In this document: piece after piece, positions 3,756-63,989 of the stretch
Layout of the letters: every line of letters begins with the position of its first letter
Position numbering within the stretch: the first letter of the stretch is position 1
Assembly: GCA_018897155.1 (NCBI GenBank)
Contig: JAHILE010000045.1
Location: 2,236 to 66,235 of the forward strand
From: Nanobdellota archaeon
Lineage (GTDB): Archaea > EX4484-52 > LFW-46
Reading direction: 5' to 3'
Length of the DNA: 64,000 nucleotides
Translations under genes and position numbers: made by a program
The notes under the pieces: model-generated
The model's input: only the letters and a program-made list of their open reading frames with translations
Database searches by the model: none
What the model was told of the DNA's origin: nothing

Positions 3756-4283
3756 ATGAACGCCTCAAATCCTCTTGAAGAAGATTATCAGAAGCTTACA
3801 AGGCAGGCAAGTTCGCTTCGGCCGCAAGGTGCGCAAAGGGCACCGCAATCCGCGGCACCGCGGCAGGATGAGTGCATTTTCTGCAAAATGGCCAAGAAAG
3901 AGATAAGGACGCGCCAAATCGAGGAGAATGCGAAATTTTCTGCGTTTCTTGACATCCAGCCAAAAGAGGCGGGGCATGTGATAATTCTTTCTAAAAGGCA
4001 TTTTGCGCAGATGGATGAAATGGATGAGGTCGAGGCTTCTACTTTGGTAGACCTTATAAAAAGCGTTTCATCGCGCATGAAAAAAGTTCTCGGAGCAACC
4101 GGATTTACAGTCATTTCCCAGAACGGTATATCTTCGGCGCAGGCTGTTGCGCATTTTGCCGTGCATGTGATTCCGACATATTCACAAAACGCCGTGGATT
4201 TGCCTGTGATGAACCTGATACAGCCGCAGAAAGTTCCGGAGTTTGTGATGGCTGATATTGAAAGGCTGCTAAGGAAGGTTTAG
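3756..4283 (+). CDS. HIT-family hydrolase (histidine triad)
   Basis: CIFCK N-terminal motif and HFAVHVIP (HxHxHxx) triad; a 40-aa Q/A/P-rich N-terminal extension. Confidence 0.8.
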   Translation: MNASNPLEEDYQKLTRQASSLRPQGAQRAPQSAAPRQDECIFCKMAKKEIRTRQIEENAKFSAFLDIQPKEAGHVIILSKRHFAQMDEMDEVEASTLVDLIKSVSSRMKKVLGATGFTVISQNGISSAQAVAHFAVHVIPTYSQNAVDLPVMNLIQPQKVPEFVMADIERLLRKV

Positions 4284-6297: not shown

Positions 6298-7557
6298 TTA
6301 AGAGTCTTGTAAAAGCCATTTCCATAGTGGTATGAATTTAATCTTTCCTTTCATATTAAACCATTCAGAATCTTCTTCAGCATCATAGTCTTCAGTAAGG
6401 ATTAAGAGTTTATGGCATTTTAGTTCTTCTCCGGCTTTAAGCAATGCACGTATTTCCCGCTTTTTGGTTTCAGGATTGCTGATATCGTAGCATACTTGAA
6501 TAAGTTGGGTTACTGCCAATTCTTTTTTAACTACAAAATCGACTTCTTCCTGCTGTGCGTTTTTCCAGTAATATGCACGTATTTCATGATTCAGTTCCGC
6601 TTTTTTTAATTTGCATGCCACAATATTTTCATAAAGTTTTCCGATATTCGGACTGAATTTGAATGCTTTAGCGTGTATGATACCGTTATCAGTGCAGTAA
6701 ATTTTCTTATTTGAAGATATTTGTTCCTTTACCTTAAATGAAAAACGAGGTATTGCAAAAACCAAAAACGCTTCTTCTAAATAGCCTAAGTATTTTTCGA
6801 CAGTGTATGGGCTTTTGCATTTCGTTATTTTGCTTAAGGAATTATAGGACTGTTCGTTTGCAATATTTGAAATTAAATACAGCGCAAGGTTTTCAATTCC
6901 TTCTGCAAAACGTATTTTATGCCGTTTTATAATGTCTTTGTAAAGTACGGAATCAAATAATGTCGAAAGATATTCTTTGAAATCCAGATGCTTCATCAAA
7001 GGCTCTGGATAGCCCCCATAGGTTATGTATTTTAGCAGCATTTCTTTTGTTTCGGAAGTTGTCAGCTCTTTTTTTTCAAAATGTAAAAATTCCTTGAATG
7101 AAAAAGGGAATATGTGAATGAGGCTGTGCCTTCCGGTAAGGTGCGTTGCCAGTTCCGCACTCAAAAGTTTCGCGTTGCTTCCGGTGATTATTAAATTATA
7201 TCCTTGCCTCGCAAGCCGGTTTGCAAATAGTTCCCATTTCGGCAAATTCTGGATTTCGTCAAACAGTATGTATTTCGGGTTGTAGTATATTGAATTTAAA
7301 GCTGAAACAATTTCGTCATAGTTTTGTGTTTCTGAAAGCTTTTCATCATCAAAATTTACGTATCCAAAATTGCCTTGTTTATTCAGAAAATGAAGCGCGA
7401 AAAAAGACTTTCCAGCCCTTCTTGGGCCAATAATCACTTTTATCAGAGGGCTATTTAGTTTATTCGAATCATAGTCTCTCTCAGCATATGGCTCTTTTAG
7501 CTTATTTTCAAGCTCTCTTTTTTGGAGCAGTAAAATGTCTCGAATCATAAAAAACAC
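6298..7557 (-). CDS. AAA+ ATPase, DUF4143-containing (COG1373-like archaeal ATPase)
   Basis: Walker A GPRRAGKS, Walker B ILFDEIQ, typical 400+ aa architecture. Confidence 0.8.
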   Translation of the reverse strand: MFFMIRDILLLQKRELENKLKEPYAERDYDSNKLNSPLIKVIIGPRRAGKSFFALHFLNKQGNFGYVNFDDEKLSETQNYDEIVSALNSIYYNPKYILFDEIQNLPKWELFANRLARQGYNLIITGSNAKLLSAELATHLTGRHSLIHIFPFSFKEFLHFEKKELTTSETKEMLLKYITYGGYPEPLMKHLDFKEYLSTLFDSVLYKDIIKRHKIRFAEGIENLALYLISNIANEQSYNSLSKITKCKSPYTVEKYLGYLEEAFLVFAIPRFSFKVKEQISSNKKIYCTDNGIIHAKAFKFSPNIGKLYENIVACKLKKAELNHEIRAYYWKNAQQEEVDFVVKKELAVTQLIQVCYDISNPETKKREIRALLKAGEELKCHKLLILTEDYDAEEDSEWFNMKGKIKFIPLWKWLLQDS

Positions 7558-18088: not shown

Positions 18089-18248
18089 ATACACTTATTC
18101 TTGATGTGAACGACAAATAATAAATAAAATATTCTATCGGCAACTTGTATGCGTCAAATATAAATGCTTAAAGACCGTTTCATACACAGTATAATAGAAA
18201 GCTTATATACTAGTGTAACATAATATTAACAATAAGTTACATAATGTA

Positions 18249-18410
18249 ATGGGTGTTGTGATGGGTGTTGTTCGAATTGATGACAAGCTGATAAAAGAAG
18301 TCCAAGCGTGGCTGGATGAGAACGGAAATAAGTATAAACATCCAACTCTTTCTGCATTTGTAAATAATGCCGTCTATGAGAAATTAAAAGAGGTTAAATC
18401 AAAAAAATAG
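18249..18410 (+). CDS. Small ribbon-helix-helix (CopG/Arc-like) DNA-binding protein immediately upstream of the Dcm gene
   Basis: 53-aa ORF (below track cutoff): VRIDDKLIKEVQAWLDENGNKYKHPTLSAFVNNAVYEKLKE has a beta-strand then two helices, RHH-like. Starts with an in-frame 12-nt tandem repeat (MGVVMGVV). Stop lies 8 nt before the Dcm ATG. Confidence 0.45.
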   Translation: MGVVMGVVRIDDKLIKEVQAWLDENGNKYKHPTLSAFVNNAVYEKLKEVKSKK

Positions 18411-18418
18411 GTGTTCCG

Positions 18419-19423
18419 ATGAAAAAGAAATTAAGAATAATGTCTTTATTTGCCGGTTGCGGCGGCATGGATTTGGGATTCCTTATGGCTGAACACCCCG
18501 AACTGGCTTATGAGCTTGTTTGGGCTAATGATTTTGATAAAACCGCCTGCGAAACATACAAAAAGAATTTTAAGCACGACATAATATGCGGCGACATTTG
18601 GGATGTTGACTTAGAGAAGACACCAAGTGTGGATGTAATTGTTGGCGGTTTTCCATGCCAAGATTTTTCAATTCTTAGAGGGGAAAAAAGGCAGGGCTTC
18701 GACTCTAAAAGAGGGCTGTTATACACCAGATTTGTAGAAGCAGTTGCCAAAAAACTGCCGTTATTTTTTGTGGCTGAAAATGTTAAGGGGCTGCTTACAG
18801 CTCACGATGGATGGGCTATAAAAAAGATAAAAGAAGATTTTGAAAAAGTTGATCATGTCGGCTACAAAGTCTGCCATAAACTGATAAACTTTGCAGATTA
18901 CGGCGTGCCGCAAAATAGAGAAAGAGTAATAATCGTGGGAATAAGAAGCGACATAAAGGCAAGTTTTGTATTTCCCGAGCCGACGCATAAAGACAAGCAT
19001 GTTCCTGCAAAAATTGCATTGTTAGGAGTGGAAACTGTGAAACTTAATAATGAAAAGATAAATATTCAGCCTTCGACAAGAAAAAAACTTGAGTTAATTC
19101 CAGCAGGCGGCAATTATCGCAGTTTGCCCGGTTATGAAAATAGAAATTGGATGAGTTTAATATATAAGCGGCTTCATCCAAATCAGCCATCCCCAACTAT
19201 CGTGGCAAACGGAGGAGGAGGAACATGGGGATATCACTATTCAGAGCCAAGACCTTTAACAAACAGGGAGCGGGCAAGAATACAAACATTTCCCGACGAT
19301 TTTGAATTTGCGGGCAATATTTCCGAAGTTAGAAAGCAGCTGGGCAATGCGGTTCCGCCGCAGGGAATAAAGCCTATTGCTGAACAGCTTCTTAGAGCTA
19401 TAAATGGTGTTAAAACGGCTTAA
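18419..19423 (+). CDS. dcm: DNA (cytosine-5)-methyltransferase
   Basis: Motif I FAGCGG, motif IV GGFPCQDFS, motif VI ENV, motif X QLGNAVPP; 334 aa. Confidence 0.9.
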   Translation: MKKKLRIMSLFAGCGGMDLGFLMAEHPELAYELVWANDFDKTACETYKKNFKHDIICGDIWDVDLEKTPSVDVIVGGFPCQDFSILRGEKRQGFDSKRGLLYTRFVEAVAKKLPLFFVAENVKGLLTAHDGWAIKKIKEDFEKVDHVGYKVCHKLINFADYGVPQNRERVIIVGIRSDIKASFVFPEPTHKDKHVPAKIALLGVETVKLNNEKINIQPSTRKKLELIPAGGNYRSLPGYENRNWMSLIYKRLHPNQPSPTIVANGGGGTWGYHYSEPRPLTNRERARIQTFPDDFEFAGNISEVRKQLGNAVPPQGIKPIAEQLLRAINGVKTA

Positions 19424-19429
19424 TCGCAA

Positions 19430-20269
19430 GTGATGCTTTATATTCTTTTCTACTCAATAGTGTTTATGCCGAATTTGGATTTGAATAACGCTTCAGAGTA
19501 CATTGGTATAAAAAGGGCTCTTCTTGAGCGTATAATAAAAGACGGGCGCGAATTGGAGCGCGTTAAAGAAGGCAGAAAATATGTTTTAAAAAGTGAAGAT
19601 ATTGATGTTTGGAAGCAGAGAAAACAGCAGAGACTTGTTGGCTTGGATAAAAACGATTTTATCAAGGCGTTTAAGTTTGCGATAGAAATTAATTATGCAG
19701 GTCATACAAGAGCGGATTTTGGCACGGCGAGGCAAAGAAGTGTAACTCAAGCTGTTGAAAATTGGACCCAAGGCGCCCTTGCAGAAATAGCACTTGCAAA
19801 GTTTATCAAACAAAAATTCAATGTGGATATTGAGCTTGAGTACCGAATATTTGAAGATTCTATTGTCGGTCAGGACATAGTGTCGGTTAAACGGCGGGGC
19901 GTCGCAAATCCTCCAAGAAAACGCATAAGCGTCAAAAGCGGAAAAGAAAATGGAATGATGCTGATTGTTCCAGTCAATGAAGTCGAAAGAGACGAGAGGG
20001 TTTCGGATTCTTATGTTTTCGTAAGGGTGTTTTACCCAACTGATTTTATCTTGAGGCTCTTAAGAGACCTTCCAGACATTTCGGATAAAAAAGATAAAAT
20101 TCCTGAATTTTCTGGCTCTAAAGCGGAAATTGTCGGATATTGTCCGAAAGGTGAACTTGAGAAGAGGGCAGTTCCAGAAGCAGGCATAGAGGAAGAGCGG
20201 TACGTTAAGCCAAGCGGAAAAATGCATAACAGCGACGTCGATTGGCAAAGATTTGCCAACGAACTATAA
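19430..20269 (+). CDS. Hypothetical protein between dcm and vsr. It has an N-terminal excisionase/MerR-like HTH and is a candidate cognate restriction endonuclease or other module partner
   Basis: GIKRALLERIIKDGRELERVKEGRKYVLKSEDIDVWK resembles HTH_17. The remaining ~220 aa are unrecognised. Co-directional with dcm (6-nt gap) and convergent with vsr (overlapping 3' ends). Confidence 0.5.
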   Translation: MMLYILFYSIVFMPNLDLNNASEYIGIKRALLERIIKDGRELERVKEGRKYVLKSEDIDVWKQRKQQRLVGLDKNDFIKAFKFAIEINYAGHTRADFGTARQRSVTQAVENWTQGALAEIALAKFIKQKFNVDIELEYRIFEDSIVGQDIVSVKRRGVANPPRKRISVKSGKENGMMLIVPVNEVERDERVSDSYVFVRVFYPTDFILRLLRDLPDISDKKDKIPEFSGSKAEIVGYCPKGELEKRAVPEAGIEEERYVKPSGKMHNSDVDWQRFANEL

Positions 20270-20683
20270 CTTTTTAACCAGCCTTGAGATGCATGACTTT
20301 GCATCTTTCTTGATTTCATGTTCCCATATTTTCACTACTTTGAAGCCTTGTTCTTTAAGGATTTTTTCGTTTTCTCTATCTCTTTTTACAGTTCTTTCAA
20401 TTTTTGGCAACCAGTAGTCTTTATGACTTTTTGGCTCATTATAGCATTTTGGACATTTGTGCCAAAAGCAACCGTGCAGAAAAACCGCAGTATTCGTTTC
20501 GTATATTAGACTGTCTGGACTCCCTCTTATTTTTGGATGCATCTTATGTTTTATTTTTTTGGCTTTCAAATAATTATGCATCTTTTTTTCTTGAGACGTC
20601 CATTTACTTCGTATTCTTGACATTGTTCTGCTTCTTTGCTCTTTTGTAAGTGTATCTGTCATATATACGCTATAGATATTCAA
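20264..20683 (-). CDS. vsr: Very-short-patch-repair endonuclease
   Basis: TKEQRSRTMSRIRSK N-terminal motif and FLHGCFWHKC catalytic block; 139 aa. Confidence 0.9.
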   Translation of the reverse strand: MNIYSVYMTDTLTKEQRSRTMSRIRSKWTSQEKKMHNYLKAKKIKHKMHPKIRGSPDSLIYETNTAVFLHGCFWHKCPKCYNEPKSHKDYWLPKIERTVKRDRENEKILKEQGFKVVKIWEHEIKKDAKSCISRLVKKL

Positions 20684-29991: not shown

Positions 29992-30816
29992 TTATAATGG
30001 ATTTGCCTGCAGCGACCATTTTCCTTTAAGCTGTTTTATGTCATATCCTCTTTCCTTCAAGAAAGGCGCGATTTCAGTTGTTGTCGGAAACTCAGAATTG
30101 AATTCTCTTTTTAAATCGGAAATAAGGGGCTTTCCCAAAGAAGATTCATACTTTTGCGAGAGGCATAGCGCATACCATTCTTTCAAATTGGAAAATGTTA
30201 TTATTCCTTGAATCCTGCTGCTAAAAGGCAGTTGCTTCATAACTGTGTTTACTGTTTTTGCTTCAGCGTCAAGGCAAACCAATATTATTTTGTCCGCGCT
30301 TATTGTGTCAGAAACGTCTTCCGCCAATTCCTCGCTCAAAGAAACATGCTTTACTTGAACAGCAGGCCCGAAATTAGACCACATATCTAAGCCTCTGTCG
30401 GCCGCGTTGGTGACGCCCGCTCGAAATAGCTTTGCAGGCATGCTTATTCTCTTTTTATTTTTCGAAAGCCCGAGCGTCAATTTAATGAAATCCTTAAAAT
30501 CGCTTAAAATCTCTTCATTAGAATCTTTTATTGATATGCTGACTTCCGCATTTAATGCGCGCACAATCGCGCTGAACAGCGCGTAAACGGTTATTTCATA
30601 CGCTTTGTCCACGCTTCTCTTTAAGCCGGGATTTTGCGCAAATAATGATAGGAACTCATCAAGCCCGAAAGTTTTCGGCGTTGCGGAATCAATATATCTA
30701 TATGCGCCGAGCACCATCGATAGCCTTTCCTGAAGCCTGTGGTATATGTAGTTTTCGACAAGCCCTCCGTTTTTTTTGTTGAATTCCGCCAGTTCCCTGA
30801 GAAATTCCGGCGGCAT
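29992..30816 (-). CDS. Hypothetical protein downstream of dcm-2 (candidate restriction endonuclease); reading frame stays open 82 codons upstream of its ATG
   Basis: 274 aa from ATG 30816. The same frame has no stop codon from 30817 up to a TGA at 31065..31063, which overlaps the dcm-2 stop, and no ATG/GTG/TTG in that extension. Possible D..QVK-type motif (ADRGLDMWSNFGPAVQVKH). Confidence 0.45.
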   Translation of the reverse strand: MPPEFLRELAEFNKKNGGLVENYIYHRLQERLSMVLGAYRYIDSATPKTFGLDEFLSLFAQNPGLKRSVDKAYEITVYALFSAIVRALNAEVSISIKDSNEEILSDFKDFIKLTLGLSKNKKRISMPAKLFRAGVTNAADRGLDMWSNFGPAVQVKHVSLSEELAEDVSDTISADKIILVCLDAEAKTVNTVMKQLPFSSRIQGIITFSNLKEWYALCLSQKYESSLGKPLISDLKREFNSEFPTTTEIAPFLKERGYDIKQLKGKWSLQANPL

Positions 30817-31051
30817 TGCGTTAGGCTCGAAAAGATTGTCTTGGAATTTTTGAGATGATGTGGAAACTCTTCCGATAAGCCTTCTGCTGACCTCATCTCT
30901 CCATTTTTTGCTGATATTTTTATAGGATTCAAAATCAGAAGGATTTGCGCTATTTTCGCTCCTATAATGGTGCAGAATTTCCGCAATCTGTATGGGCTTG
31001 TATAAATGAACTCTGCTCTTTCTTATAATTTTATCCAGCGCAATTTTGCTT

Positions 31052-32047
31052 TTAATAAGACATCACCATTTGCAATGAAGTTTGTTTGCAGCCATTTTTA
31101 GTCGCGATTATGGCCGGAAGCGGCTCGGATCGCATTGCCGCAATCATTCTTTTTGCCACTTCTCGAATCATATTCACAGGAACGCTGTTTCCGGCAAGCT
31201 TCTTTATCTGCGCGTCCGGAACAGCCATTTTGAAGCTTTTTGGAAATCCTTGCAGCAAAAGCTGCTCTCTTGGGGTGAGGCGCCGTATTCCATCCACCAG
31301 CAAATAATTATGCGATGCTCCAGATCTCAGGGCGCACGAATATTCATGAACTCCTATATGGCCTTCTTTGTTTTCGTGCCAGATAGACGGCTTCGGGACT
31401 TTCTTTTCTCCGATTTTAGCCAATCTTTTTTTAACAATATCCTCGGAAGCAAAATACTTTTTATCCACCATATCGTGCGATTCTATAATTTCGATTAGGC
31501 GCGCTTCCCTTTTTAATGGCTCAGGAAACGTAAATGGATAGTTTTTCTTAAATCCGACAATAATAACCCGCTCTCTTTTTTGAGGCAGCCCATAATCCAG
31601 CGCATTTAATACTTTCCAATGAGTCTGATACCCCAATTGTTCGAGCTTAAACAGTATTGCTTTGAACGTTCTTCCTTTGTCATGGCTTGCGAGCCGTTTA
31701 ACGTTTTCCAGCAAAAATGCTTCCGGCTCCTTTTCTTTCAATATTCTCTCAATTTCGAAAAATAATGTTCCTCGAGTATCCGCAAATCCTAACCCCTTGC
31801 CAATTATGCTAAATGGCTGGCATGGAAAGCCCGCAAGCAGCAGGTCATGATCCGGAATTTCGCTTGAAGGTATTTTGGTGATGTCTCCTTTTGGCATTTC
31901 CCCAAAGTTCGCTTCATACATTTTTTGAGCCGCAGAATCAAATTCAGAAGAAAATACGCACAAACCTCCCAATTCTTCAAAAGGAATCCTAATGCCGCCG
32001 ATTCCCGCAAAAAGATCTATGAATTTAAACGCTCGCTCCATATTCAT
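31052..32047 (-). CDS. dcm: DNA (cytosine-5)-methyltransferase, second copy
   Basis: FAGIGG, GFPCQPFS, ENV, LAGNSVPV motifs; 331 aa. Confidence 0.9.
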   Translation of the reverse strand: MNMERAFKFIDLFAGIGGIRIPFEELGGLCVFSSEFDSAAQKMYEANFGEMPKGDITKIPSSEIPDHDLLLAGFPCQPFSIIGKGLGFADTRGTLFFEIERILKEKEPEAFLLENVKRLASHDKGRTFKAILFKLEQLGYQTHWKVLNALDYGLPQKRERVIIVGFKKNYPFTFPEPLKREARLIEIIESHDMVDKKYFASEDIVKKRLAKIGEKKVPKPSIWHENKEGHIGVHEYSCALRSGASHNYLLVDGIRRLTPREQLLLQGFPKSFKMAVPDAQIKKLAGNSVPVNMIREVAKRMIAAMRSEPLPAIIATKNGCKQTSLQMVMSY

Positions 32048-63344: not shown

Positions 63345-63989
63345 TTAAATTTCAGTAACTTTACTAAACAGCGCCGGCCAATTATTTTGTTTAATTCTAA
63401 ATTTGGTGCCGTGATTATGTCCTGTTCTGGCATCAAAATCTACAAATACTACGCCGTTTAATATTCCCCTAAGAAGATTATTGAACGCGAAATCTTCAAG
63501 CAATTCTATTTTTTCATACTTAAATTCCTCTTGTTCATTTACTTTTCTTGAATCCGCAATAACATAGATAGTATTTCTAATTTTACCCGCACATTTTTTA
63601 TTTAGAACATCAAAGTCCCAAGAAGCCAGCACCGTTGCACCTACCAGATGATACTTAAGTACATTAGTTAACCAGTCTCCATGTCTTTGTTTATCAACTT
63701 TTTCTGGATCGAAGAAGATCTCTACTTTTCGTCCTACGCTATTTACATTTACTTTAAGACCACGATCAGTAAATCGATTTCCTGTCAATGTAGCTCTAAA
63801 ACTCATTTCACCTTTTGGATACATTTTTCCTGCTTCGTCGTGTGGCCAACCATACTTTGGAAGCAATACGTTTGCTACAACGCTTTTTGGTTTCCTAGGT
63901 TCAGGATCCTGATGGAATAAGGTAATTAATGACCCCGTGCTCTTTCTCTGCGTTTTTAATTCCCAATCCACCGTATTGGCAATGGCCAA
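63345..63989 (-). CDS. Possible MvaI/BcnI-like (MutH-related) restriction endonuclease
   Basis: 214 aa. The ITLFHQDP segment and the C-terminal GHNHGTKFRIK block recall, from memory, the BcnI/MvaI family. No partner methyltransferase lies within the window (window ends 11 nt upstream). Confidence 0.35.
   Translation of the reverse strand: MAIANTVDWELKTQRKSTGSLITLFHQDPEPRKPKSVVANVLLPKYGWPHDEAGKMYPKGEMSFRATLTGNRFTDRGLKVNVNSVGRKVEIFFDPEKVDKQRHGDWLTNVLKYHLVGATVLASWDFDVLNKKCAGKIRNTIYVIADSRKVNEQEEFKYEKIELLEDFAFNNLLRGILNGVVFVDFDARTGHNHGTKFRIKQNNWPALFSKVTEI

What the first reader, a model, noticed from the sequence alone, without database searches (positions are those of the whole stretch)
18249..20683. 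Module 1: RHH protein - Dcm - unknown HTH-containing ORF - convergent Vsr
A compact four-gene unit:
- a 53-aa ribbon-helix-helix-like ORF ends 8 nt before the ATG of a complete m5C methyltransferase
- 6 nt after the methyltransferase comes a 279-aa protein (excisionase-like HTH at the N-terminus, remaining 220 aa unrecognised)
- its 3' end overlaps that of a bona fide Vsr endonuclease on the other strand
Dcm+Vsr pairs are known, and M-R-V triads exist (HpaII type). The middle ORF matches no REase family I can recognise, and RHH proteins are not the usual C-protein controllers (those are XRE HTH). The middle protein could be a novel restriction endonuclease, or a non-nuclease partner that uses the HTH to target methylated or mismatched sites.
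Basis: partly seen in the sequence, partly recalled or inferred. Interest (0 to 1): 0.6.

Follow-up and report, generated by a model that had tools for sequence, protein, structure and literature searches.

The report
ApeKI-type restriction module with small regulator
This is an ordinary kind of DNA restriction-modification module (methylase, cutting enzyme, mismatch-repair nuclease) in a tiny DPANN archaeon; the "unknown" middle gene is a distant relative of the commercial enzyme ApeKI, and the small first gene belongs to an apparently undescribed regulator cassette found in front of unrelated methylases.

Summary
The four ORFs are real, with two start-codon corrections: 49 aa from 18261, and 267 aa from 19466. 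The host is a Nanoarchaeota/DPANN MAG.

The "unrecognised" middle protein (X) is a divergent member of the TseI/ApeKI Type II restriction endonuclease family:
- PADLOC REase_II PDLC03411, E = 1.8e-18. That model is in effect the Aeropyrum pernix protein next to M.ApeKI.
- Profile-profile probability 99.7% over 180 columns.
- Shared invariant residues: E, D, S-x-K-x-x-K, S-D and R-Q-R.

X differs from ApeKI in having an N-terminal excisionase-type winged HTH and a shorter C-terminus. MTase, X and Vsr recur together in about 12 independent loci, in shuffled gene orders. The module is therefore an R-M-V system. Its specificity is probably GCWGC-like, which is inferred and untested.

The small ORF is the more novel part. 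It belongs to a conserved ~50-aa RHH-like family (118 homologues). In all six promoter types examined it sits directly upstream of a DNA methyltransferase, and four different MTase types are involved. It carries a conserved TATA box followed by a TGTAAC-N16-GTTACA operator. This fits a portable controller cassette, analogous to C proteins but not homologous to them.

Overall this is a new variant of a known kind, of moderate interest.

The parts
18204..18210 (+). TATA-like box (TTATATA) of the promoter for the small ORF and MTase
   Evidence: Aligned with TTTAAATA boxes at the same distance (4 nt) from the operator in L028, L031 and L035. Its function as a promoter is inferred.
18214..18241 (.). 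Candidate operator: 28-bp imperfect palindrome TGTAAC-N16-GTTACA with a central TTAACA
   Evidence: Unique in the 64-kb window, with 0.08 matches expected by chance. Among 38 loci it occurs only upstream of small ORFs with an MGVVR strand. The 13-nt GTTACATAATGTA (18236-18248) is identical in L027. In L035, where the protein's N-terminal strand differs, the half-sites change to TGTGAT/ATCACA.
18261..18410 (+). Small RHH-like protein (49 aa; the ORF could also start at 18249), putative controller/autorepressor
   Evidence: 118 homologues of 49-60 aa, many 80-96% identical. It lies directly upstream of a DNA MTase in all six promoter types examined. Pfam gives only weak RHH_3/RHH_1 hits. The AF2 monomer shows an extended N-terminus plus two helices at pLDDT 65.8. 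The best fold match is the RHH protein ParB of pCXC100 (TM 0.70, E-value not significant).
18419..19423 (+). C5-cytosine DNA methyltransferase (334 aa)
   Evidence: PF00145 1.4e-77 and TIGR00675, with PCQ and ENV motifs present. PADLOC MTase_II PDLC03378, 1.3e-109. It is 37% and 49% identical to M.ApeKI in the N- and C-terminal parts. Orthologues at 60-75% identity accompany X in about 10 loci.
19437..19444 (+). TATA-like box (TTTATATT) about 26 nt upstream of the X start codon
   Evidence: An equivalent A/T box lies 25-32 nt upstream of the ATG in X homologues, whatever the gene order. Promoter function is inferred.
19466..20269 (+). X: TseI/ApeKI-family Type II restriction endonuclease homologue (267 aa) with an N-terminal excisionase-type winged HTH (residues ~1-55) and a nuclease core (residues ~60-235)
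   Evidence: PADLOC REase_II PDLC03411 1.8e-18. BLASTP against the A. pernix ApeKI-locus protein gives 29% identity and E = 3e-22. HHalign gives 99.7% probability, E = 1.3e-26. E107, S155, K157, K160, S180, R187, R89 and R91 are invariant and D137 and D181 nearly invariant in 29 sequences. AF2 pLDDT 88.8 with an alpha-beta-beta-beta-alpha-beta core. The N-terminal domain matches the RdfS and Xis excisionases with probability ~1.
20264..20662 (-). Vsr very-short-patch-repair endonuclease (132 aa as annotated; the ORF extends to 20683)
   Evidence: TIGR00632 at 106.6 bits, above its cutoff. PF03852 2.4e-16. E. coli Vsr 1CW0 at 7e-17 with active-site motifs kept. Vsr accompanies X in most loci.

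Best explanation
The locus is a mobile Type II restriction-modification-repair module in a DPANN archaeon.

1. MTase (shown by homology): the 334-aa enzyme methylates C5 of cytosine in a short site.
2. X, homology (shown): X is a divergent TseI/ApeKI-family endonuclease. Its core is most likely of the PD-(D/E)xK type in the S-x-K variant, using E107, D137, S155, K157 and D181.
3. X, activity (inferred): X cuts the same site when it is unmethylated. The site is probably GCWGC or a close relative, by analogy with ApeKI. X is transcribed from its own promoter.
4. Vsr (shown by homology; role inferred from E. coli Dcm/Vsr): it nicks next to the T of the T:G mismatches that arise when 5-methylcytosine in that site deaminates.
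5. Small protein (inferred): the 49-aa RHH-like protein binds, probably as a dimer or tetramer, to the TGTAAC-N16-GTTACA palindrome just downstream of the TATA box of its own promoter. It thereby represses the operon of the small ORF and the MTase once enough MTase has been made. This would be a functional analogue of R-M controller (C) proteins or of self-repressing MTases.
6. Cassette: the unit of promoter, operator and small gene is portable and is found fused to several unrelated MTases.
For: X as a restriction enzyme:
- PADLOC Type II REase model PDLC03411, 1.8e-18.
- That model matches A. pernix K1 BAA79856.2 (P0121) over 1-350 of 350 positions at 830 bits.
- P0121's cluster-mate P0074 (same 90%-identity cluster) lies convergent with a 469-aa m5C MTase whose ends, (L)SRYSTIS and EVLDAV, match the M.ApeKI cloning primers.
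- M.ApeKI methylates GCWGC, the ApeKI site (PMC8557920).
- TseI and ApeKI are described as closely similar, TseI as a homodimer of ~42 kDa subunits, with no solved structure (PMC3643589).
- HHalign of the X family against the ApeKI-like family gives 99.7%, E = 1.3e-26, over 180 columns, with the invariant residues aligned.
- An X-like paralogue in L026 has a canonical D-I-K where X has S-V-K.
- The AF2 model is confident (pLDDT 88.8) and has the alpha-beta-beta-beta-alpha-beta order.

Linkage: MTase, X and Vsr co-occur in the orders M-X-V, X-V-M, V-X-M and X-RHH-M-V in about 12 independent loci.

Vsr and MTase identities.

Small protein:
- 118 homologues.
- All four independent context look-ups, plus the window and L027, place it immediately upstream of an MTase. 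The MTases are an m5C enzyme of 334 aa, an m5C enzyme of 316 aa, an N4/N6 enzyme of 252 aa and an Eco57I-type N6 enzyme of 691 aa.
- The TATA box + 4 nt + TGTAAC-N16-GTTACA architecture is conserved in three of these contexts and found nowhere else.
- The half-sites differ where the N-terminal strand differs.
- Nucleotide identity is 66-79% within the cassette and 33-42% in the flanks.
Against: - No enzymology or methylome data exist, so activity and specificity are inferred.
- GCWGC is only mildly under-represented in the window (O/E 0.83, rank 15 of 112). The value of that test is low, because GCGC is not depleted (O/E 1.17) despite an HhaI-like module in the same window.
- X shares only ~30% identity with ApeKI, and restriction enzymes at that distance often differ in specificity.
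- In L007/L008/L018 an intact X and Vsr are left with only a 37-aa remnant of the MTase gene. That is hard to reconcile with an active, unprotected REase unless another MTase exists elsewhere.
- The RHH fold is not established: all Pfam hits are below threshold, the AF2 monomer has pLDDT 65.8, and the fold match is not significant.
- The evidence for covariation between operator and protein rests on two variant promoters only.
- The RHH-MTase linkage rests on six locus types.
Confidence: 0.72

Rival explanations
1. X is a domesticated or inactive REase relative, for example a sequence-specific DNA-binding protein or nicking partner working with Vsr. It would not be a restriction enzyme that needs MTase protection.
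For: In L007/L008/L018, from different samples, X (74% identical, intact) and Vsr persist while only the last 37 codons of the MTase remain upstream. X and Vsr are the most tightly coupled pair, with convergent ends that overlap or abut in most loci. X carries an extra N-terminal DNA-binding domain.
Against: All candidate catalytic residues are invariant or nearly so across 29 sequences, including P0002 from L007. An orthologous MTase accompanies X in about 10 of 13 distinct loci, and a related MTase is present in two more. L005/L006/L022 have M-X without Vsr. On short metagenomic contigs, a protecting MTase elsewhere in the genome cannot be excluded.
Confidence: 0.12
2. The small ORF is not a transcriptional controller. 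It would instead be an MTase accessory subunit (for example a specificity or stability factor), or an antitoxin-like protein that merely travels with MTase genes.
For: It is tightly coupled to the MTase start, with an 8-9 nt gap or an overlap of 4-17 nt. Weak hits to the VapB and ParD-like antitoxin families, which are also RHH. DNA binding has not been tested.
Against: It is paired with four different MTase types from three unrelated classes, so a shared protein-protein interface is unlikely. A conserved palindrome sits between the TATA box and the start codon, is unique to these promoters, and changes when the N-terminal strand changes. No toxin-like partner gene is present.
Confidence: 0.15
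3. X recognises a site unrelated to GCWGC, so the system is a new specificity within the ApeKI fold.
For: Only ~30% identity to ApeKI. The N-terminal domain is different. GCWGC is barely depleted, while GGCC and CCWGG are more depleted. The MTase's target-recognition region does not align with any MTase of solved structure.
Against: The window MTase belongs to the PADLOC cluster (PDLC03378) that is the nearest neighbour of M.ApeKI, and shares 49% identity with M.ApeKI in the C-terminal third. In L004 and L026, X shares a single MTase with a NgoFVII-type REase. From memory, the founding member of that Pfam family recognises GCSGC, so one GCNGC methylase could protect against a GCSGC cutter and a GCWGC cutter together. 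Other R-M modules in the window can account for the other depleted sites.
Confidence: 0.4

Closest known systems
ApeKI / TseI Type II restriction endonucleases (G^CWGC) with M.ApeKI
   Same: The nuclease core is homologous (HHalign 99.7%) and shares invariant R-Q-R, E, D, S-x-K-x-x-K, S-D and R residues. It is paired with a related C5-cytosine MTase. The host is archaeal.
   Different: The first ~45 residues are an excisionase/MerR-type winged HTH in place of the ApeKI N-terminus. The C-terminal ~95 residues of ApeKI are reduced to ~35. Identity is only ~30%. The MTase lacks the ~140-aa insertion of M.ApeKI. A Vsr gene is attached, whereas the A. pernix locus has an HhH-GPD glycosylase next door. 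Specificity is untested.
M-R-V triads such as the HpaII system, and E. coli Dcm-Vsr
   Same: A C5-MTase is linked to a Vsr nuclease that would repair the T:G mismatches caused by deamination of 5-methylcytosine. The arrangement is compact and mobile.
   Different: The REase family is different, the host is archaeal (DPANN), and there is an additional small upstream regulator gene. The comparison with HpaII is from general knowledge and was not tested here.
Controller (C) proteins of bacterial Type II R-M systems (e.g. C.PvuII, C.Esp1396I, C.Kpn2I)
   Same: A small DNA-binding protein is encoded as the first gene of an R-M operon, with a palindromic operator in its own promoter. The cassette can be exchanged between systems.
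   Different: C proteins are XRE-type helix-turn-helix proteins (PMC3874152), whereas this protein is RHH-like. It precedes the MTase and not the REase. The promoter is of the archaeal TATA type. Regulation has not been shown.
RHH repressors CopG / Arc / MetJ / Omega and the ParB of pCXC100
   Same: Size (~50 aa), an extended N-terminal strand followed by two helices, and binding sites made of short repeats. The best, non-significant, structural match is pCXC100 ParB.
   Different: No Pfam RHH model reaches its threshold. The inter-helix loop is longer (NGNKYKHP). The association with R-M methyltransferases was not found in the literature searched.

Membership tests
TseI/ApeKI Type II restriction endonuclease family | Significant sequence homology to R.ApeKI | tested here: met
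   PADLOC PDLC03411 1.8e-18. BLASTP against P0121 gives E = 3e-22. HHalign 99.7%, E = 1.3e-26, over 180 columns.
TseI/ApeKI Type II restriction endonuclease family | Conservation of the family's invariant (presumed catalytic and DNA-binding) residues | tested here: met
   These pairs align and are invariant or nearly invariant in both families (X / ApeKI): D84/D92, R89-Q-R91/R97-Q-R99, E107/E115, D137/D146, S155-x-K157/S164-x-K166, K160/K169, S180-D181/S185-D186 and R187/R192.
TseI/ApeKI Type II restriction endonuclease family | Full-length architecture (~340-350 aa, with the same N- and C-terminal regions) | tested here: not met
   X is 267 aa. Residues 1-44 are an HTH_17-type domain that does not align with ApeKI residues 1-52, and the C-terminal extension is missing.
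TseI/ApeKI Type II restriction endonuclease family | Cleavage of G^CWGC, blocked by the cognate m5C methylation | not testable with these tools
   Only indirect hints: the MTase is related to M.ApeKI, X shares an MTase with a NgoFVII-type REase in L004/L026, and GCWGC has O/E 0.83.
TseI/ApeKI Type II restriction endonuclease family | Genetic linkage to a C5-cytosine MTase | tested here: met
   An MTase is adjacent in the window and in about 12 of 13 distinct loci.
PD-(D/E)xK nuclease superfamily | An alpha-beta-beta-beta-alpha-beta core with acidic residues and a lysine in the E...D...(D/E)xK pattern | tested here: inconclusive
Vsr very-short-patch-repair endonuclease | Score above the curated family threshold, with active-site and zinc motifs conserved | tested here: met
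   TIGR00632 at 106.6 bits, above 97.85. The alignment to 1CW0 keeps the G-x-PD, HGCFWH, RDR and WE motifs.
C5-cytosine DNA methyltransferase (Dcm type) | PF00145 domain with the PCQ and ENV motifs | tested here: met
   PF00145 1.4e-77 over 2-323 of 324 positions. PCQDFS and ENVKGL are present.
R-M controller (C) proteins | XRE-type helix-turn-helix fold | tested here: not met
   No HTH_3/XRE hit. The predicted topology is a strand plus two helices. C proteins bind through an HTH (PMC3874152).
R-M controller (C) proteins | A small first gene of an R-M operon with a palindromic operator in its own promoter | tested here: met
   Binding and regulation themselves were not tested.
Ribbon-helix-helix (CopG/Arc/MetJ) superfamily | A beta-alpha-alpha fold that dimerises to form a two-stranded DNA-reading sheet | tested here: inconclusive
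   RHH_3 is hit by 7 of 55 members (best E = 1.4e-4), RHH_1 by 3 of 55, and none for the window protein itself. NCBIfam YlcI_YnfO_N scores 17.2 bits, below its cutoff of 30. The AF2 monomer has pLDDT 65.8. pCXC100 ParB matches at TM 0.70 with E = 2.7. Dimer modelling was not possible.
Excisionase/MerR-type winged HTH (HTH_17), N-terminal domain of X | Pfam PF12728 match and a winged-helix fold | tested here: met
   The window protein scores 21.8 bits, below the cutoff of 27. However, PF12728 is precomputed for most homologues, and Foldseek matches the RdfS and Pukovnik Xis excisionases with probability 0.98-1.00 at rmsd 1.7-2.1 A.

The most novel reading that the evidence does not exclude
The 49-aa protein and its TATA-proximal TGTAAC-N16-GTTACA operator form a previously undescribed, portable controller cassette for archaeal restriction-modification systems. 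It would be an RHH-type functional analogue of bacterial C proteins, and it has been recombined in front of at least four different DNA methyltransferase types from three unrelated classes in DPANN and other archaea. Operator half-sites co-evolve with the protein's DNA-reading strand. In addition, X would be the founding member of an HTH-fused short branch of the structurally uncharacterised TseI/ApeKI nuclease family.
Probability: 0.5. Interest if true: 0.6.

Novelty: new variant of a known kind. Interest (0 to 1): 0.45.

Why it matters
The R-M-V module itself is ordinary, but three points have some value.
1. It gives a function to a family annotated as "hypothetical" or "excisionase". It also extends the TseI/ApeKI family, which has no solved structure, with a confident model and a testable catalytic motif (E, D, S-x-K, S-D).
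2. Regulation of R-M systems in archaea is essentially unstudied. A conserved small regulator with a clear operator, sitting on an archaeal TATA promoter and shared by unrelated methylases, offers a simple system for asking how archaeal R-M modules time methylation against restriction when they enter a new host.
3. The variant with two REases and one MTase (X plus a NgoFVII-type enzyme) suggests that two nucleases of complementary specificity can share one methylase.

Tried and rejected
- **Sequence search of X and of the X-family profile against PDB chains:** nothing significant.
- **Foldseek of the X model against the PDB:** only the N-terminal HTH matched, and the core had no significant neighbour.
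- **M.ApeKI cloning primers searched as DNA in L010:** no match. The paper says the gene was amplified from a synthesised plasmid, so the comparison was made at the protein level instead.
- **Site-avoidance test for GCWGC:** weak and uninformative. The control site GCGC is not depleted despite an HhaI-like module in the same window.
- **Small-ORF homologues in other collections:** none in viral contigs, phage records or plasmids.
- **HMM search for distant small-ORF relatives in the other X loci and the rest of the window:** none. The 51-aa ORF upstream of the L025 MTase is not detectably related.
- **Conserved palindrome upstream of X that could make its HTH autoregulatory:** none seen.
- **Literature search for RHH/CopG controllers of R-M systems:** only TA-system regulators and a plasmid copy-number copG next to TaqIII, which is not a precedent.
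- **Not run:** the representative-protein search, because that library has no names or context and would not change the verdict.
Full report
**Observation**

The four ORFs are present as described. Composition across the region is unremarkable, at GC 0.39-0.41. The window comes from a Nanoarchaeota/DPANN MAG: the middle protein is 100% identical to "MAG Nanoarchaeota archaeon ABIF85_00520", and the same locus occurs in three near-identical assemblies.

The identities of two of the genes are secure.
- The 334-aa protein is a C5-cytosine methyltransferase: PF00145 1.4e-77 and TIGR00675 2.4e-73, with PCQ and ENV motifs.
- The convergent ORF is a bona fide Vsr: TIGR00632 at 106.6 bits, above its 97.85 cutoff, and E. 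coli Vsr 1CW0 at 7e-17 with the G-x-PD, HGCFWH, RDR and WE motifs intact.

Two start codons need correcting.
- The middle protein (X) starts at the ATG at 19466 and is 267 aa, not 279 aa. All homologues begin there, the MAG annotation agrees, and a TATA-like box at 19437-19444 lies inside the supposed extension.
- The small ORF starts at 18261 and is 49 aa.

**What the middle protein is**

Pfam and NCBIfam see only a weak excisionase-type HTH at the N-terminus. PADLOC's Type II REase model PDLC03411 matches residues 55-220 at E = 1.8e-18.

A single-sequence search found about 30 close homologues of ~267 aa, mostly in DPANN archaea. A profile search then reached a large family of ~340-aa archaeal "hypothetical proteins", including one from Aeropyrum pernix. 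The A. pernix K1 member (P0121, BAA79856.2, 350 aa) matches PDLC03411 over all 350 positions at 830 bits, so the model is in effect that protein.

In the A. pernix locus L010, its cluster-mate P0074 (same 90%-identity cluster) is convergent with a 469-aa C5-MTase. That MTase begins (L)SRYSTIS and ends EVLDAV, exactly the ends encoded by the primers used to clone M.ApeKI. M.ApeKI methylates GCWGC, the ApeKI site (PMC8557920). The TseI paper describes TseI and ApeKI as closely similar and TseI as a homodimer of ~42 kDa subunits, with no solved structure and possibly a distinct structural class (PMC3643589). P0121 is therefore, in all likelihood, R.ApeKI.

To avoid circularity I built one alignment of the X family without any ApeKI-like sequence (A3, 29 sequences) and another of ApeKI-like proteins only (A4, 31 sequences). 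HHalign gives 99.7% probability (E = 1.3e-26) over 180 columns, aligning X 45-233 with ApeKI 53-256. The invariant or nearly invariant residues of the two families align as follows:

| X | ApeKI |
|---|---|
| D84 | D92 |
| R89-Q-R91 | R97-Q-R99 |
| E107 | E115 |
| D137 | D146 |
| S155-x-K157-x-x-K160 | S164-x-K166-x-x-K169 |
| S180-D181 | S185-D186 |
| R187 | R192 |

The AlphaFold model is confident (pLDDT 88.8, pTM 0.87). It places E107 on a long helix, D137 on the second strand and S155-x-K157 on the third strand of an alpha-beta-beta-beta-alpha-beta unit. That is the PD-(D/E)xK layout in its S-x-K variant. An X-like paralogue in L026 has a canonical D-I-K at this position.

**Genomic context**

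tblastn of the four window proteins against all fetched loci, together with the gene calls, gives this picture:

| Arrangement | Loci |
|---|---|
| M-X-V | window, L001, L003, L019/L020 |
| X-V-M | L012, L023, L025 |
| V-X-M | L024 |
| X-RHH-M-V | L027 |
| M-X without Vsr, next to a DDE transposase | L005, L006 (L022 repeats the M-X pair on a short contig) |
| One MTase (~40% identical to the window's) + NgoFVII-type PLD REase + X + Vsr | L004, L026 |
| X and Vsr intact, with only a 37-aa MTase remnant | L007, L008, L018 |

An orthologous MTase (60-75% identity) and a Vsr travel with X in shuffled orders. Shuffled order with conserved content is typical of mobile R-M modules. The last arrangement in the table is the main observation that does not fit an active, unprotected REase.

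**Specificity**

This part is inferred only.
- The window MTase's best PADLOC model (PDLC03378) is also M.ApeKI's second-best hit, after M.ApeKI's own model. It is the best hit for the MTases that sit with NgoFVII-type REases.
- The window MTase shares 49% identity with M.ApeKI in the C-terminal third.
- From memory, the founding member of the NgoFVII Pfam family recognises GCSGC. Under that assumption, a single GCNGC methylase protecting against a GCSGC cutter and a GCWGC cutter would explain the modules with two REases and one MTase.
- GCWGC is only mildly depleted in the window (O/E 0.83).
- GCGC is not depleted at all, although an HhaI-like R-M module lies at 29992-32047. Avoidance is therefore not informative here.

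**The small ORF**

It is not generally conserved with X. L001 and L023 have nothing plausible upstream of the MTase, and other loci have unrelated small ORFs there: winged-HTH in L003, Zn-ribbon in L012, AbrB-like in L024.

It does have an orthologue (61% identity) directly upstream of the MTase in L027, where X lies elsewhere in the locus. A profile search found 118 homologues of 49-60 aa, many 80-96% identical.

The methyltransferases belong to different classes:
- L028-30: a 316-aa m5C MTase.
- L031-34: a 252-aa N4/N6 MTase, whose convergent partner hits a Type II REase model.
- L035-38: a 691-aa Eco57I-type N6 MTase followed by an m5C MTase.

The upstream DNA shares one architecture: a TATA box, 4 nt, then TGTAAC-N16-GTTACA with a central TTAACA, in the window (18214-18241), L028 and L031. 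This pattern is unique in the 64-kb window, with 0.08 matches expected by chance. Among 38 loci it occurs only in these promoters. L027 shares an identical 13-mer, GTTACATAATGTA.

Where the protein's N-terminal strand differs, the operator differs too. With MATVR in place of MGVVR (L035), the geometry is kept but the half-sites become TGTGAT/ATCACA. L034 (MATVK) has GTTACT-type sites.

Nucleotide identity between the window and L028 or L031 is 66-67% over the promoter and operator and 77-79% over the small ORF. It falls to 33-42% in the flanks. The unit of promoter, operator and small gene therefore behaves as a portable cassette.

Evidence for an RHH fold is weak but consistent:
- Sub-threshold RHH_3, RHH_1, RHH_6, VapB and ParD-like hits.
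- An extended N-terminus plus two helices in a low-confidence monomer model.
- Best fold match to the RHH protein ParB of pCXC100, at TM 0.70 with a non-significant E-value.

**Comparison with what is known, and verdict**

The review of R-M regulation describes C proteins as HTH proteins and mentions RHH regulators only for toxin-antitoxin systems (PMC3874152). I found no description of an RHH-type R-M controller in the searchable literature, though absence from that library is not proof.

The module is a Type II R-M system with an attached Vsr, which is a known kind. Its REase is a new HTH-fused short branch of the TseI/ApeKI family.

The small upstream gene is real and conserved. It is most plausibly an autorepressor or controller that is analogous to C proteins without being homologous to them. 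That part appears new and is easy to test.

Confidence:
- About 0.9 that X is an ApeKI-family REase homologue.
- About 0.45 that it cuts GCWGC specifically.
- About 0.6 that the small protein is a promoter-binding regulator of the MTase operon.

Noticed in passing
window 29992-32047 (- strand): A second R-M module: a 331-aa m5C MTase very similar to M.HhaI over its full length (8.7e-70), followed by a 274-aa protein that hits PADLOC REase_II PDLC03526 (2.2e-79). It has no small RHH-like gene.
   Followed up: partly
window 63345-63989 (- strand): A 214-aa ORF that hits PADLOC REase_II PDLC03524 (3.6e-52) and the C-terminal part of an MTase_II model, close to the window edge. It may be a third R-M element.
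   Followed up: no
whole window: GATC is strongly under-represented (O/E 0.40, z = -9). GGCC (0.63), CTAG (0.42) and CCWGG (0.54) are also low, while GCGC and CGCG are slightly over-represented despite the HhaI-like module.
   Followed up: partly
L004 4001-7341 and L026 2475-5798: A recurring variant module with two restriction-type genes and one MTase: X, a NgoFVII-type PLD nuclease (57% identical between the two loci), one C5-MTase (60% identical between the two) and Vsr. The gene orders differ and the samples are different. One GCNGC methylase may serve a GCSGC cutter and a GCWGC cutter.
   Followed up: partly
L026 5926-6747 (- strand): A 273-aa X-like paralogue without the N-terminal HTH (HHalign 95.4% to the X family). 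It carries a canonical D-I-K where X has S-V-K, and lies convergent with X.
   Followed up: partly
L007 438-548, L008/L018 462-572: Only the last 37 codons of the MTase gene remain upstream of an intact X (74% identical to the window's) and an intact Vsr, in contigs from different samples. This leaves an apparently unprotected REase gene, which is unexplained.
   Followed up: partly
L010 4245-4916 (A. pernix ApeKI locus): An HhH-GPD/EndoIII-type glycosylase gene lies divergent from the R.ApeKI-like gene, where the DPANN modules have Vsr. It may be an alternative route to repair of T:G mismatches from m5C deamination. The K1 protein is also listed as gp39 of the provirus APSV1.
   Followed up: no
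L003 2646-2900, L012 (upstream of the MTase at 3991), L024 (upstream of the MTase at 6794), L005/L006: Other X-type modules carry unrelated small ORFs directly upstream of the MTase: winged-HTH (84 aa), Zn-ribbon (60 aa), AbrB-like (52 aa) and a 61-aa ORF. This may be non-homologous replacement of a small regulator.
   Followed up: partly
L035-L038 1-1865: The RHH + Eco57I-type MTase + m5C MTase unit sits next to another R-M pair (a HEAT-repeat N4/N6 MTase and a CfrBI-type REase), which suggests a defence island in Pacearchaeota.
   Followed up: no
window 18245-18268: A tandem 12-nt duplication (TGTAATGGGTGT / TGTGATGGGTGT) creates the two in-frame ATG codons of the small ORF. The first copy overlaps the end of the conserved 13-mer just 3' of the operator.
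   Followed up: no
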